From Actinorugispora endophytica (GTDB lineage: Bacteria > Actinomycetota > Actinomycetes > Streptosporangiales > Streptosporangiaceae), in the NCBI RefSeq assembly GCF_004363075.1, contig NZ_SNYN01000005.1:187696-251695 (forward strand): a DNA stretch of 64,000 nucleotides. Direction: 5' to 3'. Made by a program: the position numbers and the translations under genes. Shown piece after piece: positions 25,256 through 53,947 of the stretch; position 1 is the stretch's first letter, and every line of letters starts with the position of its first letter. Below the pieces are notes generated by a model. The model saw only the letters and a program-made list of their open reading frames with translations. It did not search any database and had not been told where the DNA came from.

Positions 25256-25480
25256 GCCGCCGGATCCGACGGCGCCCGCGGTTCCTTCGTCCTCCGGGAA
25301 AGCGGTGAGTCTGTGGCCAGGCCTTCGGTGAGCGTCGTCCGCCTCCTCGGGGAGGGGCACCGCTCGGCCCGGTGACCGTACCGGTCGCCAATCCGATCCG
25401 GCCCCTCGCGGAGGCGGCGGGCGGCGCGACACGTCTGTCCCGTGTTCTCGCCCGACCTTTCCCGCAAGGAGCAACCCACC

Positions 25481-25870
25481 GTGTCACGACGACGCGACGA
25501 CCGTTCCCACTCCCGTCCGCGCGCCCGCCAGGGCGCCGAGTCGTTCCGCTGCCTGCACTGCCGCCTCGACGTGTCCATGAGCGCGCCGGGCACCGCCCAC
25601 CGCAACCACTGCCCGAACTGCCTGCACAGCAAGCACGTGGACGACCGCGTCCCGGGCGACCGGGCGTCGGACTGCCACTCCCGCATGGAGCCCATCTCCA
25701 TCGCGGTGCGCGGCGACGGCGAATGGGTGATCATCCACCGCTGCACCGGCTGCGACGAGCTGAGCGCCAACCGGACCGCGGGCGACGACAACCCGCTGCT
25801 GCTGGTGGGCATGGCCACCCGCCCGCTCGCCAGGCCCCCGTTCCCCTTGGAGCGCCTGGCCATGCTCTGA
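25481..25870 (+). CDS. RNHCP-domain protein
   Basis: The GTG start is preceded by AAGGAG. The sequence HRNHCPNCLHSKHVDD plus CxxC pairs is the RNHCP zinc-ribbon signature. Confidence 0.65.
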   Translation: MSRRRDDRSHSRPRARQGAESFRCLHCRLDVSMSAPGTAHRNHCPNCLHSKHVDDRVPGDRASDCHSRMEPISIAVRGDGEWVIIHRCTGCDELSANRTAGDDNPLLLVGMATRPLARPPFPLERLAML

Positions 25871-25948: not shown

Positions 25949-28900
25949 CTACTCCTTGAAGCCCCGGGCCGCCCGGGTGATGGCGGTCTCGACCGCTCCG
26001 ACGCGGTCGGCGAGGAGGCCCACCGCGCCCACGGCGCGGGACAGGGGGTCGTCGTCCGCGCCGCCCAGCGCCCGGGCGCGGAGGAAGGCGGCCTTCACCT
26101 CCGCCCAGCGGGCCCGCTGCTCCTCGGTCATGCGGCCGCGCAGCTCCGCCAGCTTCAGCAGGTTGGCCTCCGCGCCCGAGGTGAGGGTCTGCGCCTCGCC
26201 CCGGTAGTGGTCGTCGATCACCGCCTCCAGCTCGGCGTCGTTCATCACCGGGACGATGCGCTCGGCCAGCTTGTTCATGTTCCGGTAGGAGCCCTGCAGT
26301 CGGAACGGCGGCTCCGTCCGCGAGGCGTCCGACTGCGCCGCCGACGCGATGTAGGCGCGGTTGTTGGCCAGCACCACCTCCTGGACCCGCAGCAGCTTGC
26401 GCAGCACCGACAGGATCTGGTCCAGCTCCACCGACGAGTACGGGTGCGCGAGCCGGTCGGGCCGCACGCCCTCGTCGCCGCGCGCCATGCGCACCAGGAG
26501 CCGCACGTCCCCGCGTTCGCGGGTGGACAGCGGGGCCAGCACCGGGTTGGAGGTCAGCGCGTTCTCGACGTAGCTCAGCGCGAACAGCTCCTCCCGTCCG
26601 CTCAGCACGTCGCCCAGGTTCCACACGTCGGCGCGGTTGGCGAGCATGTCCGGGACCCGGAACCGCTTGCCCTCCTCGGTGTACGGGTTGCCGGCCATGC
26701 ACACCGCGAACCGCTTGCCGCGCAGGTCGTAGGTCCGCGTGCGGCCCTCCCACACGCCCTCCATCCGGCGCTGGCCGTCGCACAGCGAGATGAACTTCTG
26801 CAGCAGCTCCGGAGACGTGTGCTGGATGTCGTCCAGGTACAGAAGCACGTTGTTCCCGGCCTCCAGGGCGAACGAGATCTTCTCGACCTCCTGGCGCGCG
26901 GTCGCGTCGGGCGCCTCCGCCGGGTCCACCGAGGTCACCGCGTGCCCCAGCGACGGGCCGTTCACCTTCACGAACACCAGGCCCAGGCGGCTCGCCACGT
27001 ACTCCATCAGCGTGGTCTTGCCGTAGCCGGGCGGGGAGACGAGCAGCAGCAGCCCCATCTGGTCGGTGCGCTTGGCGTCGCCCGCCGCCCCCAGCTGCTT
27101 GGCGAGGTTGTCGCCGATCAACGGCAGGTACACCTCGTCGAGCAGCTGGTTGCGCACGAACGAGCTCATCACCGTGGGCCGGTACTCGTCCAGCCGCAGC
27201 CGCGCGCGCTCGGCGGCCACCAGTTCGTTGCGCCGCCGCTGGTAGGCGCGGTACGCGGGGACGCGCTCCGCGCGGAAGAGCCGGGTACGCTCCAGGGTCT
27301 CGTCCAGGCGCAGCTCCAGGCGCCGCCCGCGCACGCGCGGGTGCGCCCCGAGCAGCCCCTCGACCACCGTCGACAGCGGGCCGTCGCACTCGTACCGCTC
27401 CAGGTCCGGGGCCAGTTCGAGCGCGACCGCCTCGGGCAGGTCCGCGTCCTCGCCGGGGCGCTCCGCAGAGGCCAGGTACGCCCCCAGCCACGCCGCCACC
27501 AGCTGGTGCCGCGCCGCCAGGTCGGGCCCCAGCGCCGCGAGGTCGGCGTCGAGCTCCCCGCGCGCGGCCACGCCCAGGCTCCGGCGGAACCGCTCCACGA
27601 GCGAGCGGGCGCCGGAGCCCGCCGCGAACCCGGCGGGACCGGTCCCCGAGGCGAGCTCCTCGAACAGGTACTCGCCCGCCTGGGAGGTGCCGTCGGCGTA
27701 GGCGGCGGTGAGCCCCGCCCCCTCCAGGAACACCGCGACGGCCGCGCCCAGCTCGGCGGACAGCTCGCCGACCGCGCCGCCGCGCCCGAAGCCGAACACC
27801 GAGCGGGCCCGCGCCAGCGAGCGCGCCCGCGTGGCCCAGGACCGCTTCGCCGCGTCCCGCGCGCCGAACGCCCAGAACAGCTGCGCCGCCGCGCGGGCGG
27901 CGCGCGGGTAGCGCAGCAGCCCCGCCCCGCCGTGCAGCCGCAGCAGCGCACCCAGGACGAGGGCCGCGTCGTGGTCGTGGACGCCGCGCTCGTACCCCTC
28001 GTCGTAGCGGGACTCGGCGGCCCCGCGCACCACGGCCAGCAGCGCGTCGGGGTCCTCGGCGGCCTCGCGCAGCGCCGCCGCGGTGGTCCCGCCCTCACCC
28101 GCCTCGGCGTCGGCCAGGACCGCCGCGGCCAGGAACTCCGCCCGGTACACCTGGGGCGTCTCCGACACCAGGTGCTGCTCCCAGAACGGCCGGGTCTCGT
28201 CGAAGCCCTCGGCCGCCACCGGCGAGCGGTAGTCGGTCCCGGTGATGCTGAACGCCATCCGCCCGTCGTGCGGCACCAGCGTCAGGTCGAGCGGCTGGGT
28301 GTTCACCGCGAACCGGTGCGGCCCCAGCCGGACCGACTCGCCGCCGTCGGTGAACAGGTCGAGGCGGTCGCGCAGCGCCCGGCCGGCCTCCTGGCGGGCC
28401 GACTTGACCCGCCCCTCGACCTCCTCGGCGCGCACCTGGTCGCCGAGCGCGCGCAGCTCGTCGGCGGTGGAGCGGAGCCTGGCCACCATGGGGTCCGAGG
28501 CGAAGTAGGTGTTCACCTCGTCGACGGAGCCCAGCGACGCCGCCCGGCGGCGCACGCTGCCCAGGACGCGCTCGGCGGACTCGGCGAGCCGGTCCGCGCG
28601 GCGGACGCGCTCGTCCAGCAGGGCCTGCTTACGCCCGCTGAACGCCTCGTAGACGTCCTCGCGCTTGGCCTCCAGCTCGTCCAGGAAGTCGTCGAACTCC
28701 CCGAAGCGCGACTCCAGGTTCTCCACCTGGAGCATCAACCGCCCCAGCTGCTCGTCGCACGCCTCGGGGGTGTCGGCCATCGCGATCGCGCCGGTCACCG
28801 CCTGGCCCAGCAGCGCGAACTCCGCCGCGAACGCCGCCCGCCCCTCGGCGGCCAGCAGCTCCCGGCGCCGCGCGGCCAGGGTGGCGCGGGCCCGGTTGAC

Positions 28901-30919
28901 CGAGCCCAGCACCTCGCCGATGCGCTCCAGGATGCGCGTGCGCACGGTCGCGTCGGCGATGTCGAGCGAGCCGACGACCTCGGTGACGGTCTCCAGGCCC
29001 TCGGTCTGCTCGGCTAGCCGTGCCTCGACGGGCGCGGCGTCCGCGACGGTGGCGATGGCCTCGGCCCCGGCGATCAGCGCGGCCACGTCGGCGTGGTAGC
29101 CGGTGAAGGCGTCGTCCCCGCTCAGGAACTCCACCGCCCGCCGCCCGGCCGAGGCCAGGTCGTCCACGAGCGTCCCGGCGAGCGCGTCCAGCCGGCCGGT
29201 GTCGACGTAGCGCAGCTCGCGCAGCGTCTCCAGGCGCCCCTGGGACCGGCGCAGCTCGGCCAGGCGGCGCACCCACTCGTCCGCCGAGGCGGGCGCCTCG
29301 CCGCGTACCCGGCGCACCAGCGCGGTGACGTCGCTCCCGGCCTCGTCCAGGGCCGCGGCCGCCCGCGCGGTCAACGACTGGACCTTCTCGAACTCGTCCA
29401 GCACCTGACCGGCGGTGGCCCGCACCCGGGTGAGCGGTTCGCGCAGGTCGCCCAGGTCGGCGTCGCCCAGCCAGTGGTACTGGTCCAGGGTCCGCCGGCA
29501 GGCCGCGATCAGCCCTTCGAACACGCGGGCGGAGGGCGCCATCTCGTCGACCATCCGGGCCACCGACAGCGCGTCGGAGACGCCCCGGACCAGGTCGGCG
29601 TTGCCGACCCGCTCCAGCGGGCCGGTGCCCACGGGCTGGCGGGCGGCGTAGGCGTCGGACTGGAACGGGGTCCGCCACACCTGCATGGGGTGGACCCGGG
29701 TGGGCTCCTCCGACAGGGCGCGGAACACCACCATGGTCCCGTCGTCGAAGACCGAGTACCCGTGGCAGGTGATCGGGTTGGCGACCTCCTTGCGGATCAC
29801 GTTGTACGGCAGCAGCAGGCTGCGGCCGTCGGCCCGGGAGTGGAAGACGTACAGCACGTCCTCGCCGTTGGGCGAGCGGACCAGCTGCTGGAACTCCAGG
29901 TCCGCCACGTCGGTGTCGAAGGTCCTGGCCACCCCGGTGGACAGGTAGAAGCCGCCGGGGAAGATCAGGCCCTGGTCCTCGGGCAGCCGCTGGCAGGCCT
30001 GCCCGATGCCGTCCAGGCGGACCACGTCCCGGGTGCGCGTGTTGAACACCAGGTACCGGTGCTCGGTCTCCTTGTAGGGCAGGACGCGCAGCAGGATGAG
30101 CGGGCCCACCCGGGCGTGCGCGACGCTCGCGTCGGCCAGGCTCTGCAGCGGCTCGGCCACCGGCTCGCTGTAGACGCCCTCGCCGGTCTCGGTGTTGTTC
30201 TCGACCTTGACGGTGAGGTCGCCGCCGACCGTCTCCACGAACAGCTCGTCGGCGATGGAGATGTGCGGGTGGCGGCCGACGACGTGGTCCTCGCGGGTGG
30301 CCTCCACCCAGGCGAGGTCCTGCCGCGGCGGGAAGACGTGGTCCCGCTCGCCCTTGTTGTCCAGGTAGGACAGGCCCCCGTCGGGGCCCACGCGCCAGCG
30401 CAGCACCCGGATGTCGGAGGTGGCGGGCCCGGTCTGGAAGACCGCCAGCAGCCGGCCCTCGACGCGGCGCAGCTGGAGCAGCCGGGTGTCGCGGAAGTAC
30501 CGGTACAGCTCGGCGAAGTCCTTGCGGAACCGCTCGTCGTCCAGCAGCTCGGGCAGTTCGCCCGGACCGGCGTCGGCGAAGGCGAAGGCGTCGTCCTCGG
30601 ACGTGAAGCGGTGCAGCGAGAGGACGTCCTCGACGCGCGTCTCGGACCTGAGGCCGATGAAGACGTTGTAGCCGAACAGCATGAGGCCGCCCGCGGGCAC
30701 GATGTCGCGCGGCACGCAGTTGTGCGCGGTGCGGATCCGCTCGGTGCCCAGCAGCGTCAGTTCGGTGCCGCCGAAGACGCCCAGGCGCGCGGCGTTCAGC
30801 GCCTCGGCGCGCCGGGCCAGCTCGGCGGCCTGCTCGCCCAGCCGGGCCCGGAGCACCTCGAAGGTGCCCATGTCGAGCCCGGCCCGGTCGTCGTCCGGCG
30901 TCGTGACGAGGTCGGTCAC
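25949..30919 (-). CDS. Giant (1656 aa) flotillin-associated protein: an unassigned roughly 1150-aa N-terminal region plus a C-terminal MoxR/dynein-like AAA+ ATPase module
   Basis: Single uninterrupted frame. The GTG start lies 7 nt after the flotillin stop. Walker A (LLLVSPPGYGKTTLMEYV) and Walker B (VLLYLDDIQH) both lie in the C-terminal 450 aa, and I recognise no domain in the first roughly 1150 aa. Confidence 0.8.
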   Translation of the reverse strand: MTDLVTTPDDDRAGLDMGTFEVLRARLGEQAAELARRAEALNAARLGVFGGTELTLLGTERIRTAHNCVPRDIVPAGGLMLFGYNVFIGLRSETRVEDVLSLHRFTSEDDAFAFADAGPGELPELLDDERFRKDFAELYRYFRDTRLLQLRRVEGRLLAVFQTGPATSDIRVLRWRVGPDGGLSYLDNKGERDHVFPPRQDLAWVEATREDHVVGRHPHISIADELFVETVGGDLTVKVENNTETGEGVYSEPVAEPLQSLADASVAHARVGPLILLRVLPYKETEHRYLVFNTRTRDVVRLDGIGQACQRLPEDQGLIFPGGFYLSTGVARTFDTDVADLEFQQLVRSPNGEDVLYVFHSRADGRSLLLPYNVIRKEVANPITCHGYSVFDDGTMVVFRALSEEPTRVHPMQVWRTPFQSDAYAARQPVGTGPLERVGNADLVRGVSDALSVARMVDEMAPSARVFEGLIAACRRTLDQYHWLGDADLGDLREPLTRVRATAGQVLDEFEKVQSLTARAAAALDEAGSDVTALVRRVRGEAPASADEWVRRLAELRRSQGRLETLRELRYVDTGRLDALAGTLVDDLASAGRRAVEFLSGDDAFTGYHADVAALIAGAEAIATVADAAPVEARLAEQTEGLETVTEVVGSLDIADATVRTRILERIGEVLGSVNRARATLAARRRELLAAEGRAAFAAEFALLGQAVTGAIAMADTPEACDEQLGRLMLQVENLESRFGEFDDFLDELEAKREDVYEAFSGRKQALLDERVRRADRLAESAERVLGSVRRRAASLGSVDEVNTYFASDPMVARLRSTADELRALGDQVRAEEVEGRVKSARQEAGRALRDRLDLFTDGGESVRLGPHRFAVNTQPLDLTLVPHDGRMAFSITGTDYRSPVAAEGFDETRPFWEQHLVSETPQVYRAEFLAAAVLADAEAGEGGTTAAALREAAEDPDALLAVVRGAAESRYDEGYERGVHDHDAALVLGALLRLHGGAGLLRYPRAARAAAQLFWAFGARDAAKRSWATRARSLARARSVFGFGRGGAVGELSAELGAAVAVFLEGAGLTAAYADGTSQAGEYLFEELASGTGPAGFAAGSGARSLVERFRRSLGVAARGELDADLAALGPDLAARHQLVAAWLGAYLASAERPGEDADLPEAVALELAPDLERYECDGPLSTVVEGLLGAHPRVRGRRLELRLDETLERTRLFRAERVPAYRAYQRRRNELVAAERARLRLDEYRPTVMSSFVRNQLLDEVYLPLIGDNLAKQLGAAGDAKRTDQMGLLLLVSPPGYGKTTLMEYVASRLGLVFVKVNGPSLGHAVTSVDPAEAPDATARQEVEKISFALEAGNNVLLYLDDIQHTSPELLQKFISLCDGQRRMEGVWEGRTRTYDLRGKRFAVCMAGNPYTEEGKRFRVPDMLANRADVWNLGDVLSGREELFALSYVENALTSNPVLAPLSTRERGDVRLLVRMARGDEGVRPDRLAHPYSSVELDQILSVLRKLLRVQEVVLANNRAYIASAAQSDASRTEPPFRLQGSYRNMNKLAERIVPVMNDAELEAVIDDHYRGEAQTLTSGAEANLLKLAELRGRMTEEQRARWAEVKAAFLRARALGGADDDPLSRAVGAVGLLADRVGAVETAITRAARGFKE

Positions 30920-30926
30920 CGGCGCG

Positions 30927-33074
30927 TCACCGCTTCAGCGCGTGCGCGTCGAGTTCGGACAGCGGCTTGTCGGCCACGCCCAGCCGCCGCGCGGACCGCA
31001 GCAGGTCGGAGAGGCCGGCGGAGTCGGGGCCGCCCGAGTCGATCAGCTTGAGCAGCAGGGCCGACAGGGTGAGGTTCCTGACGTCCTCGGAGTCCACCGA
31101 CCCCAGCAGCCGGGACAGGTCCCGGGTGAAGTCCTGGGAGCCGTCCAGCCACGCCCCGGCCAGGGACTGGGCGGTCGCGGAGTTCTCCATGAAGCCGTCC
31201 ACGGCCTTGCCGACGCTGATCGAGTTGACGATGCGGTCGAAGAACATCCCGTCGCCGCCGACGATGTCGATGTCGGCGCTCTCCAGGCCCTTGCCCAGCA
31301 CGCTGGCCTGGGCCTCGGCGACCCGGCGCTGGACGTCGATCCCGGCCAGGCGGACCTCCTTCTCGGCCTCCAGGCGCAGGCGGTACTCCTCGTGGTCGCG
31401 GGTGGCGTCGTCGAGCGCGGCCATCGCCTCGGCCTTGTCGGTGATGCCCTCGGCCTCGGCCTTGAGCTTCTCGCGGATCTGCGTGGCCTCCGACATCGCC
31501 TTCTCGCGGTCGGCCAGGGCCTGGGCGAGCCCGACCTTCTCGACCTTCTCGGCCTGCGCCTGGGCCTGCTCGCGGTCGGCGACGGCCTGGGCGAGCCCGA
31601 GCTTCTCGATCTCCTCGGCCTGGGCGAGCGCCTTCTCGCGCCGGACGACCGCCTCGGCGCGGCCGGTCTTCTCCAGGGCCGCGGCGTCGCGCTCGCGGAC
31701 CTGGACCTCGGCCAGCCCGTCGGCGGCGGCCTCGGCCTGGCGGCCCTCGGCGAGGCGGATGCTCGCGGCGGCGTCCAGCTCGGCGGCCCGCTGGCGCGCC
31801 TCGGCCAGGGTCAGCTGCTCGCGGGCGGAGTGCTCGGCGGCCTGCGCGGCGGCCTCGGCGGCCTTGATGTCCTTGACCAGCTTCTCCTGCGCCTCGCCCT
31901 CGGCGAGGATGACCGCGGACTGGCGGTGGCGCTCGGCCTCCTCCAGCACGCGCAGCTTCTTGATGTTCTCCTCCTGCTCGGCGACGGTCCTGTCGACGGC
32001 GATGCGCTCGCGGATGGCCTCGGCGATCTCGCGCTTCTCGGCCTCCAGCTCCTTGTCCTTGGCGATGCGCGACAGGTCGGTCTCGCGCTCGCGGGCGATG
32101 ACCTCCAGCAGGCGGTCCTTCTCGATGCGCTCGGTCTCGATCGCGATGACCCGCTCGCGGTTCTTCTCGGCCACCGCGATCTCGCGGTCCCGGTTCTCGC
32201 GCTGGACGCCGAGCTCCTGGTCGGCGCGGATGCGCGCGGCCTGGGACTTGAGCAGCTCGTCGGCGCGCACGATCTCGGTCTCGGCCTCGGCGCGGGCGCG
32301 CAGCGACTCCACCTCGCGCTTCTGCCTGGTCTCGGCCTCCTCGCGGCGGCGCTCCAGCTCCAGGATGGTCTCGCGCGCCTCGACGTTCTGGCGCTCGAGC
32401 TCCTTCTCCTCGTTGCGGCGGTGCTCGTTGGTGCTGATGCTCTGCAGCGCGGTCAGCTCGGTGATCTTGCGGATGCCCTGGGCGTCCAGGATGTTCGCCG
32501 AGTCGAGCTGGGTCATCGGGGTCTGCTCGAGGTAGTCGATGGCCGCGTCCTCGAGGCTGTAGCCGTTGAGGTCGGTGCCGATGACGTGGATGATCCGGTC
32601 GCGGAACTCGTCGCGCTTTGTGTAGAGGTCCTCGAAGTCGAGGTGCTTGCCGACGGTCTTGAGCGCCTCGGAGAACTTCGCGTTGAACAGCTCCTGGAGG
32701 GTGGACTGGTCGCTGGCGCGCTCGGTGCCGATGGCCTGGGCGACCTTGATGACGTCCTCGGTGGTCTTGTTGACCCGGACGAAGAAGGTGATGCGGATGT
32801 CCGCGCGGATGTTGTCCCGGCAGATCAGGCCCTCCTTGCCGGTCCGGGCGATGTCGATCGTCTTCACCGAGATGTCCATGACCTCGGCCTTGTGCAGGAC
32901 CGGCAGCACGACGGCGCCGGTGAAGGTGACGTCCACCTTCGTGACCTTGGAGACGATCAGGGCCTTGCCCTGCTCGACCTTGCGGAACAGGCGGCTGATG
33001 ACGAACAGCAGCCCCAGGAGGACGAGGAGGAGGACGGCGATGAGCACGCCGACCCCTGCGGTGATTGTTTCCAT
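30927..33074 (-). CDS. Flotillin (SPFH/band-7) family protein with a very long coiled-coil
   Basis: An N-terminal TM segment and SPFH domain (KALIVSKVTKVDVTFTGAVVLPVLHKAEVMDISVKTIDI) are followed by an E/A/R-rich coiled-coil of more than 300 aa, typical of YqiK/FloT. Confidence 0.9.
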   Translation of the reverse strand: METITAGVGVLIAVLLLVLLGLLFVISRLFRKVEQGKALIVSKVTKVDVTFTGAVVLPVLHKAEVMDISVKTIDIARTGKEGLICRDNIRADIRITFFVRVNKTTEDVIKVAQAIGTERASDQSTLQELFNAKFSEALKTVGKHLDFEDLYTKRDEFRDRIIHVIGTDLNGYSLEDAAIDYLEQTPMTQLDSANILDAQGIRKITELTALQSISTNEHRRNEEKELERQNVEARETILELERRREEAETRQKREVESLRARAEAETEIVRADELLKSQAARIRADQELGVQRENRDREIAVAEKNRERVIAIETERIEKDRLLEVIARERETDLSRIAKDKELEAEKREIAEAIRERIAVDRTVAEQEENIKKLRVLEEAERHRQSAVILAEGEAQEKLVKDIKAAEAAAQAAEHSAREQLTLAEARQRAAELDAAASIRLAEGRQAEAAADGLAEVQVRERDAAALEKTGRAEAVVRREKALAQAEEIEKLGLAQAVADREQAQAQAEKVEKVGLAQALADREKAMSEATQIREKLKAEAEGITDKAEAMAALDDATRDHEEYRLRLEAEKEVRLAGIDVQRRVAEAQASVLGKGLESADIDIVGGDGMFFDRIVNSISVGKAVDGFMENSATAQSLAGAWLDGSQDFTRDLSRLLGSVDSEDVRNLTLSALLLKLIDSGGPDSAGLSDLLRSARRLGVADKPLSELDAHALKR

Positions 33075-33129: not shown

Positions 33130-33778
33130 TCAGGAGACGGGGCGGTCCGGGTCGAGTTCGGCGTCGTAGGCCGTGACCCAGAAGAACGCCCCGGCGTCGT
33201 CGTACTCGAAGATCAGGGCGGTGCTGCCCGAGGTGAGGGGGTCGTCGCCGTTCTGGCGGACCTGGACGAGCGCGGTGGAGCCGTCGGCGGAGGACACCTC
33301 GGCCTGGCCGAAGTCCTTGTCCACCCGCCCGGTCCTGATCACGCAGACCCGGCCGACGAAGTCGCGCTGGGAGGGCTCGCGGCCGTCGGGGGCGAAGCGG
33401 CGCCACAGCACGGCGAGGAGGCTGGTCGCGGCCCAGGCGCAGACCAGCGCGATCGCGAGCACGACGACGCCCAGCGCGACGACCATCGGGGAGGAGAGGT
33501 CGGCGCCGTCCAGGAGCGCGGCGCCGGTGAGGCTGGTGAACCAGGAGACGGCGATCACGAGCGAGAGTGACACGGTGACGGGTATCCCTCCGAGGCCGAT
33601 GCCCGACATGAACCCGGCGAAGCCGCCCGCTTCGGCGCCTTCGTCGACGTCGGCGTCGAGCAGGTCGAGGCCGAGGGCGCCCAGGACCACCATGACCCAG
33701 TAGCCGATGACGACGATTAAGGCGAAGCTGAACAGGGCCGTGGGGAAACCGAGCGCTGCGGACAGGAATTCACTCATA
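33130..33778 (-). CDS. NfeD-like membrane protein (YqiJ/YuaF type), the flotillin partner
   Basis: N-terminal TM helices are followed by a C-terminal OB-fold region (GRVCVIRTGRVDKDFGQAEVSSADGSTALVQVR). The stop lies 55 nt upstream of the flotillin start. Confidence 0.75.
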
Positions 33779-34122: not shown

Positions 34123-37026
34123 TCAGACGCGCCAGAGGGCCCCGCCGTCGGTGCCGTACAGCACGGCGTCGCCGTCGTCCTGGACGACCAGGCGGGTTCC
34201 CGGGTTGCCCGAGGTCCCGCTGTTCCAGAGCCGGTGGCCGTCGGCGTCGTAGAGGACGAGGTCGCCGTCCTCCTCCAGGTGCAGGACCCCGACGGAGGCG
34301 CCGTGGGTGCCCGTCGCCCACAGGGCGCGCCCGCGCGGCCCCCGGTAGAGGACGAGGTTGCCGTCGTGCTGGTAGACGAGGTGGTACTCGCCCGAGGCCG
34401 AGTCCAGCGCCCCCGGGGTCATGACCTGGCCGCCCAGCATCGTGTCGCCCCGGGCGGGCGGCCCCTCGGGCAGGGGGCGCCGTACGACCTCGGTGTCGGT
34501 GGCCCACAGCTCCTCGTCGTCCTCGCCGTACAGGACGACGTTGCCGTCGCCCCGGACGACCAGGCGCGCGCCGGGGTTCTCCTCGGTTCCGCTGTTCCAG
34601 ACCAGGTCGCCGTCGGCGTCGTAGAGGACGAGGTCGCCGTCCTCCTCCAGGTGCAGGACCCCGACGGACGAGCCGTAGGTGTCCGACGCCCACAGGGCGC
34701 TGCTGGAGCCGGTCCGGTAGAGGACGAGGTTGCCGTCGTGCTGGTGGGCGAGGTGGTACTCGCCGGAGGCGGAGGTGAGGGTGCCGCGCCGGAGGGTCTG
34801 GCCGGGCAGCATCGTGTCGCCCTGGGCGGGCGGCCCCTCGGGCAGCCTGCTCGCCTGCGCCGTGCCGGTGTGCCACAGCCGCCGGCCCGCCTCGTCGAGG
34901 AGGACGAGGTCGCCGTCGTCCCGGACGACCAGGCGCGCGCCGGGGTTGCCGGAGGTGCCGCTGCGCCAGACGGGGGCGCCGCCGCTGTTGTACAGGACGA
35001 GGTCGCCGTCCTCCCCCAGGTGCAGGACCCCGACGGAGGCGCCGTACGTGTCCGTCGCCCACAGGGCGTGGCCGTGGGAGCCCCGGTAGAGGACGAGGTT
35101 GCCGTCGTGCTGGTGGGCGAGGTGGTACTCGCCCGAGGCGGAGGAGAGGGACCCGCGCCGGAGGACCTGGCCGGGCAGGACCGTGTCGCCCTGGGCGGGC
35201 GGCCCCTCGGGGAGGGGGCGCCGGACGGTGTCGGTGTGCCACAGCCGCTCGCCCGCCTCGTCGAGGAGGACGAGGTCGCCGTCGTCCCGGACGACCAGGC
35301 GCGCGCCGGGGCTGCCGGAGGTGCCGCTGCGCCAGACGGGGGCGCCGCCGGCGTCGTGGAGGACGAGCTCGCCGTCCTCGTGCAGCGCCAGGGCCCCGAT
35401 CGAGGCGCCCTGGGTGTCGGACGCCCACATGGCGTTGCCGCGGGGGCCCTGGTAGAGGACGAGGTTGCCGTCGTACTGGTAGACGAGGTGGTACTCGCCC
35501 GAGGCCGAGGAGAGCGACCGCGGCCCCAGGACCTGGCCGGGCAGCATCGTGTCGCCCTGCGCGGGCGGCCACTCCGACAGCGGGTACCGGGCGGTGCGTG
35601 TGGCCCACAGCGGCCTGCCGTCGGCGTCGTGCAGCGCGAGGTCGCCGTCGTCCCGGACGACCAGGCGCGCGCCCGGAAGCCCCGAGGTGCCGGTGCGCCA
35701 GACGGGGGCGCCGTCGGCGTCGTGGAGGACGACGTCGCCGTCCTCGTGCAGGGCGAGGGCCCCGACCGAGGCCCGGCGGGTGCCGGACGTCCACAGGGCG
35801 TGGTCGTCGCTGTCCCGGTAGAGGGCGAGGTCGCCGTCGTTCTGGTGGACGAGCGTGTACTCGCCGGAGGCGGAGGTGAGGGACTGGCGTCGGAGGGTCT
35901 GGCCGCGCAGCAGCGCGTCGCCCCGCGCGTGCGGGCCCTCGGGGAGGGGGCGCCGGACGGTGCCGGTGGCCCACAGCCGCTCGCCCGCCCCGTCGTACAG
36001 CACGACGTCGCCGTCGTCCCGGACGACCAGGCGCGCGCCCGGGCTGCCCGCGGTCCCGGTGCTCCAGACCTCGTCCCCCCGGGCGTTGTGGAGCACCAGG
36101 TCGCCGTCCTCGCGCAGGGCGAGGCGCAACGTCCCCCCGCGGTGCCTCCCGGTCTCCCACAGGGACCGGCCGTCGTGGTCGCGGTACAGCACGACGTTGC
36201 CGTCGTTCTGGTGGACGAGCGTGTACTCGCCGGAGGCGGAGGTGAGGGACTGGCGCCGGAGGGTCTGGCCGGGCAGCATCGTGTCGCCCCGGGCGTGCGT
36301 GCCGGCTCCGGCGGGGGGCGGCGGGAGCGGGGCGGCGGCGGGGGAGTCGGCGACGCCGAGCTCCGCGGGGGTCTCCCACTCCAGGTGCTCGCGCTCCTCG
36401 TCGGCGGGGTCGCCCTTGGCGGGGACCGGGAGGTAGCCGCTGTCCCCGGTGACCGGTTCGCCCCGGTCCCGGTATCGCCACAGTCCCGCCGGCCTTCCGT
36501 CGTGCATGGCGTCCGCGACGTCGGCGAGCAGGTGGGCGAGGCTCGGCCACTCGGCGGGCTCGTCGTTGGCGTCGTCGTGGCGCCAGCTCATGACGCAGCC
36601 CTGCCGGGGGCCCTCGCGCAGGTCGACGAACATGTGGTCGCCCGACCCGTCGGCGGCGATCGGGACGAAGTACTCGGAGTAGTGCGGGGGAGGGGTCCCG
36701 GCCTCGCCGTCGCCGTCGCCGTCGTGTGCCGGGTCCGCGAACCCGCTGTCGGCTCCTCTGGACTCCAGGGCCGCACCCCGGATGGAGGCGACCTCGCCGA
36801 GCCCGATGGAGGCGTGGTCGGGAGGGAACACCGTGAGGTCGTCGAAGCGCGGCATCCGCCACCACGCCACCAGGTCGGGGGGAAGGGGGAACCCGAGGGC
36901 CTCCTCTTCGAGGCGGCGGACCTCCTCGTCGGTCGGCGGCTCCCGCCGCAGCTCCGGACTCCCGGGCACGTTCGCGTCCAGCCAGTCGAGGACGCGCTTC
37001 CATGACTCTTCCACTGAGGGGTACAT
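34123..37026 (-). CDS. SUKH (Smi1/Knr4) domain protein fused to six tandem bulb-type (monocot mannose-binding-type) lectin domains
   Basis: The N-terminal 200 aa carry WKRVLDWLDANVP...LGFPLPPDLVAWW...EYFVPIAADGSGDHMFVDL, a SUKH-1/SMI1_KNR4 signature with no signal peptide. A Pro-rich linker follows, then six repeats of about 123 aa each beginning GDTMLPGQ..L....SL.SASGEY.L..Q.DGN.VLY (the QxDxNxVxY motif) with degenerate second and third subdomain motifs (HEDGDLVLH, VVRDDGDLVLY). The DNA shows a period of about 369 bp. Confidence 0.75.
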   Translation of the reverse strand: MYPSVEESWKRVLDWLDANVPGSPELRREPPTDEEVRRLEEEALGFPLPPDLVAWWRMPRFDDLTVFPPDHASIGLGEVASIRGAALESRGADSGFADPAHDGDGDGEAGTPPPHYSEYFVPIAADGSGDHMFVDLREGPRQGCVMSWRHDDANDEPAEWPSLAHLLADVADAMHDGRPAGLWRYRDRGEPVTGDSGYLPVPAKGDPADEEREHLEWETPAELGVADSPAAAPLPPPPAGAGTHARGDTMLPGQTLRRQSLTSASGEYTLVHQNDGNVVLYRDHDGRSLWETGRHRGGTLRLALREDGDLVLHNARGDEVWSTGTAGSPGARLVVRDDGDVVLYDGAGERLWATGTVRRPLPEGPHARGDALLRGQTLRRQSLTSASGEYTLVHQNDGDLALYRDSDDHALWTSGTRRASVGALALHEDGDVVLHDADGAPVWRTGTSGLPGARLVVRDDGDLALHDADGRPLWATRTARYPLSEWPPAQGDTMLPGQVLGPRSLSSASGEYHLVYQYDGNLVLYQGPRGNAMWASDTQGASIGALALHEDGELVLHDAGGAPVWRSGTSGSPGARLVVRDDGDLVLLDEAGERLWHTDTVRRPLPEGPPAQGDTVLPGQVLRRGSLSSASGEYHLAHQHDGNLVLYRGSHGHALWATDTYGASVGVLHLGEDGDLVLYNSGGAPVWRSGTSGNPGARLVVRDDGDLVLLDEAGRRLWHTGTAQASRLPEGPPAQGDTMLPGQTLRRGTLTSASGEYHLAHQHDGNLVLYRTGSSSALWASDTYGSSVGVLHLEEDGDLVLYDADGDLVWNSGTEENPGARLVVRGDGNVVLYGEDDEELWATDTEVVRRPLPEGPPARGDTMLGGQVMTPGALDSASGEYHLVYQHDGNLVLYRGPRGRALWATGTHGASVGVLHLEEDGDLVLYDADGHRLWNSGTSGNPGTRLVVQDDGDAVLYGTDGGALWRV

Positions 37027-37070
37027 GCGCGGCACTCTGCCAGTGAACGGTGACAGGAAGGCGAACCTCC

Positions 37071-37132
37071 GCCGATCTTGACCTTTTCGGGGTCTCGACT
37101 GCGGCTGAGACCCCGAAAAGGTCAAGATCGGC
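37071..37132. repeat. Palindromic intergenic repeat (family P), copy 1; contains the stop codon of the DUF559 gene
   Basis: GCCGATCTTGACCTTTTCGGGGTCTC-gactgcggct-GAGACCCCGAAAAGGTCAAGATCGGC. Confidence 0.7.
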
Positions 37133-38060
37133 GAGGAAGTGAGAGCTCGCGCCGGAGGTAGGCGAGGATCGCGGTGTTCGCGGGGTGGAGGTCGGCCTGG
37201 GTGCAGACGTAGAGGTCCCAGCCGAGGTCCTTGACGGCGTTGCGGCGTGCCGCGTCCTCGCGCCACCTTTCGCGGTGCACGACCCCGTCGTACTCGACGG
37301 CGATCCGCTGTTCCCGGTAGCCGAGGTCGAGGCGGGCCACGTGTCGGCCGGACGGGGCGAACAGGTTGATCTGGGCCTCGGGGCGGGGAAGCCCCGCCCG
37401 TACGAGCTTCATCCGCAGCCGGGACTCGCCGGGGGACTCGCTCGCGGGTTCGGCCTGCTCCGCGACGAGGACGGCGCGTCGGATCCCGCGCCACCCGGCG
37501 AAGCGTTCGTGTCGCGCGTGGTCGGCCAGCTCCTCGGGTGTGAACAACCCGAGGTGGGTGAGCGCGTCCACCGCGACGACCGCTTCCGTGTCGTTCCCGC
37601 CCGGACCGGTCCTGCGCGCGAGGTCGAGTCCGGTGCGCAGGGGGGTGGTGGCGAGCAACCCCGCGAACCGCGTCACGTCTTCGGGGAGCAGCTCGGCGCG
37701 CCGGATCGACAGGCCGCGCCGCGGTCTCATCGGAGCACCTCGCGGCAGGGTGATCTCCAGGGGGTCGTTCCACCGGCGGATGTCCGCCCCGTACAGCCAG
37801 GCCGCGGTGCTCCCGCTGAGGACGGCCCCCTCCGGCAGGACGAGCGCGAGCGCGTGGACGCGCTGCTCGATGGTGTCGGGCAGTCCGGCGAACACGTAGA
37901 CGTCGCGCAGCAGCCGACGCCAGCAGCCGCTCCGCAGCTGCTCCGCGGTCAACGTCCCCTTCCGGCACGCTTCGGTGCCGCGGAACGGGCCTGTTCTGAG
38001 GGGTTCGGGAATCTCCGGGAGGGTTGGCATGTGTCCAGGGTGCGGCCGACCGCCGTCCAC
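37122..38060 (-). CDS. DUF559 (Vsr-like endonuclease domain) protein with an AbiEi-like N-terminal region
   Basis: The C-terminus reads EQRIAVEYDGVVHRERWREDAARRNAVKDLGWDLYVCT, typical of actinobacterial DUF559 proteins. Start is GTG at 38060 or ATG at 38030. Confidence 0.7.
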   Translation of the reverse strand: MDGGRPHPGHMPTLPEIPEPLRTGPFRGTEACRKGTLTAEQLRSGCWRRLLRDVYVFAGLPDTIEQRVHALALVLPEGAVLSGSTAAWLYGADIRRWNDPLEITLPRGAPMRPRRGLSIRRAELLPEDVTRFAGLLATTPLRTGLDLARRTGPGGNDTEAVVAVDALTHLGLFTPEELADHARHERFAGWRGIRRAVLVAEQAEPASESPGESRLRMKLVRAGLPRPEAQINLFAPSGRHVARLDLGYREQRIAVEYDGVVHRERWREDAARRNAVKDLGWDLYVCTQADLHPANTAILAYLRRELSLPRRS

Positions 38061-38080
38061 CGGGGATGCCTGTCCACAAC

Positions 38081-52498: not shown

Positions 52499-52708
52499 GA
52501 TCGCCTCCGAGGTTGACGGGTACCGACACTGTGACACACGGCTACGACAATTCCGCCTCGTGCCGCTGCCCCGCTTTCCGGGGCCGCGCTCGGGAGGGGC
52601 CGCCGCGCGGGTCCGCCGCCCGCAGGGGGCCGGGGGGATACCGTGGATGGCCCCGCACCGGTCGGAACCGGTCGAGCCCCGGGAACCGCGGAGACGGGAG
52701 ACGACGCG

Positions 52709-53947
52709 ATGCTGCGGCGAACCACCATCACGACCGTTCTCAGGCGGGCGCTGCTCGGCCTGCTCGCGGCGCAGGTCGCGGTGGTCGTCGGCCTCGTCGG
52801 CATCGACACCTGGCGCAAGCGGATCCGTCCCGGACGGGTGGAGTTCCCCACGACCGAGCCGACGGACATCCCGGTCGGCGAGACGGTCGTCACGCCCTAC
52901 ACCTACGGCGAGCACCTCTACGCCGACATGCTCGACGCGATCCGGTCCGCGCGGCACCGCATCCTGCTGGAGTCGTTCATCTTCAAGGGCGACGAGGTGG
53001 GGAAGGAGTTCAAGCGCGCGCTGATCGACGCCGCGGACCGGGGCGTCGAGGTCTTCGTGATCTACGACGGGTTCGCCAACCTCGTCGTGCGGCCGTCCTT
53101 CTTCCGGTTCCCGCCCTCGGTGCACGTCATCCGCTACCCGGTGATCCGGCCGGGGCTCCTGCTGCTGAACGTGCGCAAGTCCGGCCGCGACCACCGCAAG
53201 ATCCTGACCGTGGACGGCGGGATCGGGTTCGTCGGCGGCTACAACATCGGCTCGGTGTACGCCACGGAGTGGCGGGACACGCACCTGCGGCTGGTCGGAC
53301 CGGCGGTGTGGGAGCTGGAGAACGCGTTCTCCGACTTCTGGAACTCCAACCGGGGGAGCGGGCAGCCGCGGCTCGACGACGTGGGCACCGAGCACTGGAA
53401 CGCGCGGATCCGCGCGCACCGCAACGTGCCCGAGGTGCTCATCTACCCCATCCGCGCGATGTACCTGGAGGCGATCGACCGGGCCAGGGACCACATCTAC
53501 ATCACCCAGGCGTACTTCATCCCCGATCGCGAGATCCTGGGCGCCCTGGTCGCGGCGGCCCGGCGCGGGGTGGACGTGCGAATCCTGGTCCCCGAGTACT
53601 CGAACCACGTCGTGGCGGACTGGCTGTCACGCGGCTTCTACTCGGCGCTGCTGCGCGGGGGCGTGACCCTGCTGCTGTTCCAGGAGGCCATGGTGCACGC
53701 CAAGACCGCCACCATCGACGGCCAGTGGAGCACGGTCGGCACCGCCAACGTCGACCGGTTGAGCCTCACCGGGAACTACGAGATCAACGTGGAGGTCTTC
53801 GACAGAGAGGTCGCGGCCCACCTCGAGGGGGTCTTCGCCAACGACAGCACCAACGCGCGCCGGTTGACGGAGGAGGAGTGGCGCCGCCGCCCGTTCGTGG
53901 CCAAGTTCAGCGAGACGGTCCTCGTCCCCTGGCGGCCCTTTCTCTGA
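52709..53947 (+). CDS. cls: Cardiolipin synthase/phospholipase D family with 2 HKD motifs
   Basis: HRKILTVDG and HAKTATIDG HKD motifs, with N-terminal TM segments. Confidence 0.8.
   Translation: MLRRTTITTVLRRALLGLLAAQVAVVVGLVGIDTWRKRIRPGRVEFPTTEPTDIPVGETVVTPYTYGEHLYADMLDAIRSARHRILLESFIFKGDEVGKEFKRALIDAADRGVEVFVIYDGFANLVVRPSFFRFPPSVHVIRYPVIRPGLLLLNVRKSGRDHRKILTVDGGIGFVGGYNIGSVYATEWRDTHLRLVGPAVWELENAFSDFWNSNRGSGQPRLDDVGTEHWNARIRAHRNVPEVLIYPIRAMYLEAIDRARDHIYITQAYFIPDREILGALVAAARRGVDVRILVPEYSNHVVADWLSRGFYSALLRGGVTLLLFQEAMVHAKTATIDGQWSTVGTANVDRLSLTGNYEINVEVFDREVAAHLEGVFANDSTNARRLTEEEWRRRPFVAKFSETVLVPWRPFL

What the first reader, a model, noticed from the sequence alone, without database searches (positions are those of the whole stretch)
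25949..30919. Giant protein with a large unassigned N-terminal region and a C-terminal AAA+ module
The Walker A and Walker B motifs both lie in the last roughly 450 aa. I could not assign the preceding roughly 1150 aa to any domain. The start codon lies 7 nt after the flotillin stop, which points to co-translation and a functional link.
Basis: partly seen in the sequence, partly recalled or inferred. Interest (0 to 1): 0.6.

Follow-up and report, generated by a model that had tools for sequence, protein, structure and literature searches.

The report
Flotillin-partnered giant AAA+ ATPase ("DNA repair ATPase")
The gene is real, but it is an already catalogued and widespread bacterial protein: a soluble 1656-residue ATPase almost always encoded right after a membrane flotillin gene, never studied experimentally, and probably mislabelled "DNA repair ATPase".

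Summary
The ORF at 25949-30919 (- strand, 1656 aa) is real. The GTG start 7 nt after the flotillin stop is supported, and Walker A (1295-1302) and Walker B (1359-1364) lie near the C-terminus.

The N-terminus is not unassigned. Residues 33-482 match Pfam DUF3686 (E 6.6e-215) and residues 603-687 match DUF7902. An identical protein (from Met17) is in NCBI as "DNA repair ATPase" from Actinorugispora endophytica.

The family occurs in at least 582 species genomes across many phyla. In 74 of 76 informative loci the gene follows a YqiK-like flotillin, itself usually preceded by a YqiJ/YuaF-like membrane protein. Twenty-eight proteobacterial loci add DUF2170-PspA.

This operon was described by comparative genomics in 2024 (PMC11237479). 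I found no experimental work.

Best reading: an ATP-driven remodeller acting with the flotillin/NfeD (and sometimes PspA) membrane scaffold. Nothing supports the DNA-repair label. It is already known as a family, and its function is still open.

The parts
33130..33777 (-). YqiJ/YuaF-like (short NfeD-like) membrane protein, first gene of the cassette. The longest ORF runs to 33861, but homologues start at the Met at 33777.
   Evidence: About three hydrophobic segments followed by a C-terminal soluble part. It is 47-52% identical to the gene at the same position in Micromonospora and Amycolatopsis. A profile of 31 homologues matches E. coli YqiJ with hhalign probability 92%, E 6.7e-7. Pfam is weak: only 1 of 31 members hits YqiJ_N.
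30927..33074 (-). YqiK-like flotillin (TM + SPFH/Band_7 + long coiled coil + C-terminal region), 715 aa
   Evidence: PF01145 E 6.9e-9. TM segment at residues 1-34. 27% identity over 451 aa to E. coli YqiK, E 1e-34. 69-70% identical to the upstream neighbours in L001 and L002.
25949..30919 (-). Giant soluble AAA+ protein, 1656 aa (DUF3686-DUF7902-AAA; named 'DNA repair ATPase' in NCBI)
   Evidence: No TM segment was found.
29474..30823 (-). Pfam DUF3686 (residues 33-482). The all-beta, propeller-like core is residues 55-416 (29672-30757), preceded by helix 19-49.
28355..29656 (-). Long helical rod (residues 422-855), which includes Pfam DUF7902 at 603-687 (28859-29113)
28220..28336 (-). Small beta domain (residues 862-900)
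   Evidence: AF2 model. The conserved motif 'LGxHxFSVNTQxLDLT' is seen.
27413..28210 (-). Helical domain (residues 904-1169). From about residue 1000 on it is the least conserved part of the protein.
   Evidence: AF2 pLDDT ~88. Conservation profile.
26450..27172 (-). AAA+ module (about residues 1250-1490), MoxR/midasin/dynein-like. Walker A 27014-27037; Walker B (DD) 26828-26845; pre-sensor-1 beta hairpin 26714-26767; sensor-1 N1411 within 26681-26701; conserved R1429 within 26627-26647.
25955..26434 (-). C-terminal helical region (residues 1496-1655) carrying the conserved motif EPPFxLQGSYRNMNK (1541-1550 = 26270-26299)
   Evidence: AF2 model. Invariant columns.

Best explanation
The gene encodes a soluble, probably ring-forming, MoxR-clade AAA+ ATPase. 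Each subunit carries a ~1250-residue arm made of a beta-propeller-like head, a spectrin-like helical rod and further helical domains. It is the third gene of a conserved cassette: a YqiJ/YuaF-like 3-TM protein, then a YqiK-like flotillin, then the giant ATPase. The most likely mechanism is as follows. The flotillin and the NfeD-like protein build an oligomeric scaffold on the cytoplasmic face of the membrane. The ATPase docks on this scaffold through its N-terminal propeller and rod. It then uses ATP to assemble, disassemble or remodel the scaffold, or the PspA polymers and client proteins held in it, as part of membrane-stress maintenance. Shown here: the domain architecture, the AAA+ clade, conservation of the active-site motifs, the lack of any TM segment, the conserved synteny, and the recurrent PspA linkage. 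Inferred: physical interaction with flotillin, ring formation, ATP hydrolysis, and what the substrate is.
For: Synteny. The NfeD-like, flotillin and ATPase genes lie on one strand in 74 of 76 informative loci. These come from Actinomycetota, Gamma-, Beta- and Zetaproteobacteria, Myxococcota, Bacteroidota, Verrucomicrobiota, Planctomycetota, Omnitrophota and Clostridia. The flanking genes differ between loci. Gaps are short or the genes overlap. PspA link. Twenty-eight proteobacterial loci and a Flavobacterium contig place DUF2170 or CesT_Tir plus PspA directly upstream. On plasmid pQBR103, genes annotated DUF2491, DUF350, DUF1190 and glutathionylspermidine synthase-like precede the cassette. 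Literature. PMC11237479 describes the same operon and proposes membrane-associated, chaperone-like or ESCRT-like dynamics. ATPase. Walker A SPPGYGKT is present in 70 of 71 full-length representatives down to 30% identity, and Walker B, sensor-1 N and a conserved R after helix 4 are invariant or nearly so. The AAA+ core is the most conserved region. The fold is closest to CbbQ and NorQ, which act on protein complexes. Location. The protein has no TM segment, whereas both partners are membrane proteins.
Against: There is no experimental evidence of any kind, and no paper mentions DUF3686 or PF12458. MoxR ATPases normally work with a VWA partner, and none is in the cassette. Walker B is DD rather than DE in all aligned members, so hydrolysis may be slow or switch-like. 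E. coli has yqiJK without this ATPase, so flotillin does not generally need it. Two Bacteroidota loci (L052, L074) show no flotillin within the 1.45 kb of upstream sequence available.
Confidence: 0.55

Rival explanations
1. It is what the databases call it: a DNA repair ATPase, working like SbcC, Rad50 or SMC on DNA through long coiled coils.
For: The Pfam description of DUF3686 ('ATPase involved in DNA repair') and the NCBI name. There are weak sequence hits to RuvB over the Walker A region only. The protein has a long helical region.
Against: The ATPase is a single AAA+ domain at the C-terminus. It is not a split ABC-type head with an intervening antiparallel coiled coil. The RuvB matches reach 19-21 bits against cut-offs of 282-299. 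No nuclease or DNA-binding domain was found in the protein or the cassette. The conserved neighbours are membrane proteins and PspA. My inference, not tested, is that the name was transferred from coiled-coil similarity.
Confidence: 0.03
2. The cassette is an anti-phage or other conflict system, in which the NTPase senses infection and the membrane partners act as effectors (abortive infection by membrane disruption).
For: Large NTPases with propeller or repeat sensor domains are common in conflict systems (general knowledge). The cassette sits in different genomic contexts. It occurs on a few megaplasmids, including pQBR103. Mobile-element genes are inserted inside it in some loci. In this window a SUKH/lectin protein is the upstream neighbour.
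Against: No significant PADLOC hit: the best is IetA at E 0.0025, over the P-loop only. Sequence conservation is unusually high: 70-82% identity across actinomycete orders and 40-55% between phyla, colinear over 1600 residues. Gene order is stable. Only 13 of 72,556 plasmid records carry it. The surrounding window holds ordinary metabolic and transport genes.
Confidence: 0.1
3. The protein is mainly a structural, nucleotide-switched tether or spacer. Its long rod links flotillin platforms to another cytoplasmic structure or to each other, and ATP binding gates assembly rather than driving mechanical remodelling.
Against: The complete catalytic set other than the Glu is under strong purifying selection: K and T of Walker A, sensor-1 N, and conserved arginines. 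The closest structural relatives are active remodelling ATPases.
Confidence: 0.15

Closest known systems
[quoted passage not shown]
   Same: Same protein family and same gene order. The paper's Dokdonia example reads CesT_Tir -> PspA -> YqiJ-YuaF -> Band-7+CC+Flotillin -> Betapropeller+CC+AAA. I recovered the same context around a DUF3686 protein on a Flavobacterium contig and in 28 proteobacterial loci. The window carries what the paper calls the 'abbreviated operon'.
   Different: There is no CesT/Tir-PspA dyad in this 64-kb window. In the text I read, the paper does not name the Pfam families or the AAA+ clade. Here the module is placed structurally with MoxR, midasin and dynein.
MoxR-family AAA+ ATPases (CbbQ, NorQ, RavA)
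   Different: MoxR proteins are ~270-500 aa and pair with a VWA-domain partner (established knowledge). This one is 1656 aa with a 1250-residue N-terminal arm, has no VWA partner in the cassette, and has DD instead of DE in Walker B. Identity to CbbQ and NorQ is only 15-16%.
Midasin/Rea1 and dynein
   Different: Those proteins have six AAA+ modules in one chain. This one has a single module per chain and would have to oligomerise.
Vps4 with ESCRT-III, and FtsH within HflK/C SPFH cages
   Same: The functional analogy is an AAA+ machine operating on or inside a membrane-bound polymer or cage. PspA is an ESCRT-III relative, and flotillin and HflK/C are SPFH proteins (PMC11237479; PMC11188069).
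E. coli YqiJ-YqiK and B. subtilis YuaF-FloT (NfeD-flotillin pairs)
   Same: The two upstream genes are homologues: YqiK 27% identity, E 1e-34; YqiJ hhalign probability 92%.
   Different: E. coli lacks the ATPase gene: no match in 5,426 complete genomes, and the gene after yqiK is sibD/ibsD. The window's flotillin is ~160 residues longer than YqiK.

Membership tests
Pfam DUF3686 (PF12458) / DUF7902 (PF25472) protein family | Match to the family HMMs above the gathering score | tested here: met
   PF12458: 714 bits against a cut-off of 25, profile positions 1-448 of 448. PF25472: 114 bits against 26, positions 1-85 of 85.
DUF3686-AAA family | Colinear full-length architecture of 1600-1900 aa with a C-terminal P-loop | tested here: met
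   BLASTP alignments cover residues ~15-1650 down to 30% identity. SPPGYGKT is present in 70 of 71 full-length representatives.
AAA+ superfamily | Walker A GxxGxGK[ST] and Walker B hhhhD[DE] | tested here: met
   SPPGYGKT at 1295-1302 and LLYLDD at 1359-1364. Both are invariant. The second acidic residue is Asp, not Glu.
AAA+ superfamily | Alpha-beta-alpha core plus helical lid | tested here: met
AAA+ superfamily | ATP hydrolysis and ring oligomerisation | not testable with these tools
   Needs an ATPase assay and SEC-MALS or cryo-EM.
MoxR / midasin / dynein clade (AAA_5) | Pre-sensor-1 beta-hairpin insert | tested here: met
   Strands 1385-1390 and 1393-1398 lie between the Walker B strand and the sensor-1 strand in the model.
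MoxR / midasin / dynein clade (AAA_5) | Closest structural neighbours belong to the clade | tested here: met
MoxR / midasin / dynein clade (AAA_5) | Helix-2 insert | tested here: inconclusive
   A conserved ~20-residue segment, GPSLGHAVTSVDP..., lies between strand 2 and helix 2, but the model shows it as a loop rather than a hairpin. I had no access to coordinates.
MoxR family proper | VWA/MIDAS-domain partner encoded nearby | tested here: not met
   No VWA hit among the cassette genes or the recurrent neighbours that were scanned.
Classical AAA clade (Vps4/Cdc48/FtsH, PF00004) | Full PF00004 match including the second region of homology, and no pre-sensor-1 hairpin | tested here: not met
SbcC/Rad50/SMC-type 'DNA repair ATPase' | ABC-type head split by an antiparallel coiled coil, with a nuclease or kleisin partner | tested here: not met
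   Both Walker motifs lie within 70 residues of each other in a C-terminal AAA+ fold. There is no SbcD-like neighbour. No SMC or Rad50 family appears in the Pfam or NCBIfam results.
RuvB | Match to the equivalog HMM above its cut-off | tested here: not met
   21.1 and 19.4 bits against cut-offs of 282 and 299, over the P-loop region only.
Flotillin-YqiJ/YuaF-AAA+ operon of PMC11237479 | [quoted passage not shown] | tested here: met
   Conserved in 74 of 76 informative loci.
Flotillin-YqiJ/YuaF-AAA+ operon of PMC11237479 | 3-TM YqiJ/YuaF-type gene upstream of the flotillin | tested here: met
   About three hydrophobic segments. hhalign to E. coli YqiJ: probability 92%, E 6.7e-7. Pfam support is weak, 1 of 31 members.
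Flotillin-YqiJ/YuaF-AAA+ operon of PMC11237479 | CesT/Tir-PspA dyad (full version of the operon) | tested here: not met
   tblastn with a PspA and a DUF2170 protein found nothing in the window. The window therefore holds the 'abbreviated' form that the paper also describes.
Beta-propeller fold (N-terminal domain) | Circular array of four-stranded blades, with structural similarity to known propellers | tested here: inconclusive
Known anti-phage defence systems (PADLOC) | Significant match to a defence-system model | tested here: not met
   Best hit is IetA at E 0.0025 over 29 residues of the P-loop. The flotillin has no hit.

The most novel reading that the evidence does not exclude
The giant MoxR-clade ATPase is the dedicated energy-consuming partner of a bacterial flotillin cage. 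A megadalton ring would reach the membrane scaffold through six propeller-tipped arms and disassemble or reset flotillin/NfeD (and PspA) assemblies, or extract the proteins trapped in them. That would be a bacterial counterpart of Vps4 with ESCRT-III or FtsH with HflK/C, built from a different AAA+ clade. It would give bacterial flotillin, whose molecular function is still debated, a defined ATP-dependent cycle.
Probability: 0.35. Interest if true: 0.7.

Novelty: already known. Interest (0 to 1): 0.35.

Why it matters
The role of bacterial flotillins is still debated. Proposals include scaffold, membrane-fluidity regulator and ATP-independent holdase (for example PMC11222466, listed). This large, very conserved ATPase is encoded directly after one flotillin subfamily in hundreds of species. 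They include Stenotrophomonas maltophilia, Pseudomonas, Xenorhabdus, myxobacteria and most of the actinomycete genera seen here. It offers an obvious but unexplored experimental handle. The practical gains from this check are three. The 'DNA repair ATPase' label that automated annotation has given most named homologues has no support. The AAA+ module belongs structurally with MoxR, midasin and dynein rather than with Vps4 or Cdc48. The NCBI start codon for this gene is probably 16 codons too short. None of this makes the finding new, because the family and its operon are already in Pfam, NCBI and the literature.

Tried and rejected
- **Papers.** Searches for DUF3686, PF12458, 'DNA repair ATPase' with flotillin or SPFH, MoxR with flotillin, and flotillin with Streptomyces and AAA found nothing on this protein.
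- **Papers read.** The SPFH evolution paper and the 2026 P. aeruginosa SPFH paper do not mention it.
- **PDB by sequence.** Searches with the single protein and with a 106-sequence profile hit only the P-loop region of other AAA+ proteins. No solved relative exists.
- **Pfam on the first cassette gene.** No hit for the window's copy, and only 1 of 31 homologues hit YqiJ_N. A PDB profile search for an NfeD/YuaF structure failed. Only hhalign against E. coli YqiJ gave support.
- **Promoter and terminator scan of the cassette.** Uninformative in this high-GC DNA.
- **Structure-prediction input.** The final alignments had 46 rows.
- **Defence reading.** No PADLOC support.
- **DNA-repair reading.** No supporting domain or neighbour.
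- **E. coli.** The ATPase is absent from all 5,426 complete genomes at blastn sensitivity.

Full report
**Observation.** The window has ~73% GC. An ORF of 1656 codons runs on the minus strand from the GTG at 30919 to the stop at 25949. Its codon-position GC pattern is that of a genuine gene (GC3 0.99). The ORF directly upstream (30927-33074, 715 aa) ends in TGA at 30929-30927, exactly 7 nt before the GTG. It is an SPFH/Band_7 protein with one N-terminal hydrophobic segment. It is 27% identical over 451 residues to E. coli flotillin YqiK (E 1e-34). Walker A (SPPGYGKT, 1295-1302) and Walker B (LLYLDD, 1359-1364) lie in the C-terminal fifth of the giant protein.

**Start codon.** An identical protein is in NCBI from Actinorugispora endophytica, but it is annotated from Met17 (1640 aa). 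The 16 extra residues encoded after the GTG (TDLVTT..DDRAGLD) are conserved at protein level in homologues of 82% and 75% identity. Most homologues also keep residues before the GTYE motif. The longer reading is the better one.

**The N-terminus is not unassigned.** Pfam places DUF3686 on residues 33-482 (E 6.6e-215, full profile) and DUF7902 on residues 603-687 (E 3.4e-33). It also gives AAA and AAA_5 matches above threshold at 1291-1416. NCBIfam and PADLOC add only sub-threshold P-loop hits. More than 5,500 homologues were scored. The best 120, from several actinomycete orders, are 70-82% identical, and most of those carrying a name are called 'DNA repair ATPase'. An exhaustive search with residues 1-1200 found 1,377 clusters at 50% identity. 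Full-length members (1,600-1,900 aa) stay colinear down to ~30% identity.

**Structure.** I built two AlphaFold2 models from 46-row alignments spanning 30-80% identity.
- *Residues 1-1200* (mean pLDDT 81.8): a helix (19-49); an all-beta domain of about 28 strands (55-416, pLDDT ~90); a rod of long helices (422-855); a small beta domain (862-900); and a helical domain (904-1169).
- *Residues 1130-1656* (mean pLDDT 86.5): an AAA+ core with a beta hairpin between the Walker B strand and the sensor-1 strand, followed by a lid and a helical C-terminal region.
- *Other searches.* No solved structure is related by sequence beyond the P-loop. The protein has no predicted TM segment.

**Conservation.** The AAA+ core is the most conserved part (top-residue frequency 0.81-0.84). 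The propeller-like domain follows (0.62-0.72), then residues 651-900. Residues 1001-1250 are the least conserved. Walker A, DDIQH, the sensor-1 Asn, an Arg after helix 4 and a C-terminal EPPFxLQGSYR motif are invariant or nearly so across phyla. The second Walker B acid is Asp in all aligned members. I cannot explain this family-specific feature.

**Genomic context.**
- *The window.* A third gene lies upstream of the flotillin on the same strand (33130-33777). It has about three hydrophobic segments and a soluble C-terminal part. Pfam does not recognise it, but a profile of 31 homologues matches E. coli YqiJ (hhalign probability 92%).
- *Other actinomycetes.* The same three genes occur in Micromonospora and Amycolatopsis with unrelated flanks.
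They come from Gamma-, Beta- and Zetaproteobacteria, Myxococcota, Bacteroidota, Verrucomicrobiota, Planctomycetota, Omnitrophota, Clostridia and Actinomycetota.
- *Flotillin synteny.* Of those 80 loci, 76 have enough upstream DNA to judge. In 74 of them the flotillin lies upstream on the same strand. The exceptions are L052 and L074, each with only 1.45 kb of upstream sequence.
- *YqiJ-like gene.* It is detected in 66 of the 68 loci where it could be seen.
- *Gene spacing.* Gaps between flotillin and the ATPase gene are usually under 150 nt, and some genes overlap by 4-8 nt.
- *PspA link.* Twenty-eight proteobacterial loci add DUF2170 and PspA directly upstream. A Flavobacterium contig has CesT_Tir_1, PspA, a 217-aa gene, a 686-aa gene, a 106-aa gene and then the DUF3686 protein. 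On plasmid pQBR103, genes annotated DUF2491, DUF350, DUF1190 and glutathionylspermidine synthase-like precede the cassette.
- *Absence and rarity.* The window has no PspA. Its surroundings are ordinary chromosomal genes. Only 13 of 72,556 plasmid records carry the gene. E. coli has yqiJK but not the ATPase.

**Literature.** Ravi et al. (mSystems 2024, PMC11237479) describe this operon explicitly. [quoted passage not shown] They also note 'abbreviated operons' without PspA that are widespread in bacteria and archaea. Their supplementary table gives the Dokdonia neighbourhood in the same order. They infer a role in membrane-associated assembly and ESCRT-like dynamics. I found no experimental study and no paper that names the Pfam families.

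**Interpretation.** The best-supported reading is a soluble, probably ring-forming, MoxR-clade AAA+ machine. It would work with the flotillin/YqiJ-like membrane scaffold, and with PspA where that is encoded alongside. Its propeller-tipped arm would dock on the scaffold, and ATP would drive remodelling of the scaffold or of the proteins held in it.
- *Shown:* the architecture, the AAA+ clade, motif conservation and synteny.
- *Inferred:* the interaction, ring formation, hydrolysis and the substrate.
- *Rivals:* the database label 'DNA repair ATPase' has no support. There is no ABC-type split head, no nuclease or DNA-binding partner, and only P-loop similarity to RuvB. A defence function is not excluded but is unlikely, given the conservation, the stable gene order, the lack of PADLOC hits and the rarity on plasmids. 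A mainly structural, nucleotide-gated tether remains possible because of the DD Walker B and the helical-bundle rod.

**Verdict.** The feature is already known as a family and as an operon, although it has not been characterised experimentally. Interest is moderate to low for discovery. It would be higher for anyone wanting an entry point into bacterial flotillin function.

Noticed in passing
window 34123-38079 (- strand): A 1318-aa ORF directly upstream of the cassette combines SUKH-1/SMI1-KNR4 (E 2.8e-9), a PQQ-like beta-propeller (E 7.8e-18) and a D-mannose-binding B_lectin domain (E 7.8e-37). Its GC3 (0.86) is lower than that of its neighbours. The architecture is unusual. Its start codon and whether it is a single gene were not checked.
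   Followed up: no
window 25442-25870 (+ strand): A small RNHCP-domain protein (PF12647, E 5e-38) is convergent with the 3' end of the giant gene. It is not conserved next to the cassette in other genomes.
   Followed up: no
window 30871 versus 30919: The NCBI record for the identical protein (P0001, 1640 aa) starts at Met17. Conservation of the upstream 16 residues in P0003 and P0005 suggests the annotated start is 48 nt too far downstream.
   Followed up: yes
window 26828-26845 and all homologues: The Walker B motif is LYLDDIQH, with Asp instead of the usual catalytic Glu, in all aligned members from all phyla. The consequence for hydrolysis is unknown.
   Followed up: partly
L036:7412-7960, L041:7369-7935, L045:7396-7929, L048:7395-7940, L063:7200-7571: In Betaproteobacteria and one Pseudomonas, a ~120-190-aa protein with paired CxxC motifs (a double zinc ribbon by eye) is inserted between the flotillin and ATPase genes. 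The copies are homologous to each other. It may be an extra component of the system.
   Followed up: partly
L006:7622-7861, L011:7599-7841, L013:7555-7815, L063:7640-7879; also L084:7600-7969: A conserved ~80-aa protein (60-86% identical among Pseudomonas and Lysobacter) sits between flotillin and the ATPase gene in some Gammaproteobacteria. A 106-aa gene occupies the same position on a Flavobacterium contig. No family was assigned.
   Followed up: no
L006:13232-13798 and seven other loci (L004, L008, L011, L016, L017, L025, L063): A rhomboid-family intramembrane protease gene (PF01694, E 1.7e-18) lies just downstream of the ATPase gene in 8 gammaproteobacterial loci, on the same strand in 7 of them.
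   Followed up: partly
L083 (pQBR103, NC_009444.1 86.5-97.6 kb): On the Pseudomonas fluorescens SBW25 megaplasmid, genes annotated DUF2491, DUF350, DUF1190 and glutathionylspermidine synthase-like directly precede the cassette. From memory, and not tested here, these resemble the E. coli yjf genes. This would tie the cassette to the polyamine-linked PspA operon class of PMC11237479.
   Followed up: partly
L040:6024-7924; L019:5608-7146; L055:6600-7229; L079:7512-7934: Unrelated genes are inserted between the flotillin and ATPase genes in a few genomes: two PDDEXK_2 transposase-like genes (L040), an NYN-domain protein (L019), a DMP19-like protein (L055) and an unassigned 140-aa ORF (L079). The junction therefore tolerates insertions.
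   Followed up: partly
window 52643-53947 (+ strand): A PLD-like (PLDc_2, E 8.7e-43) protein is encoded 21 kb from the cassette. PMC11237479 notes an HKD phospholipase D inside some proteobacterial versions of the operon. Here the distance makes a link doubtful.
   Followed up: no
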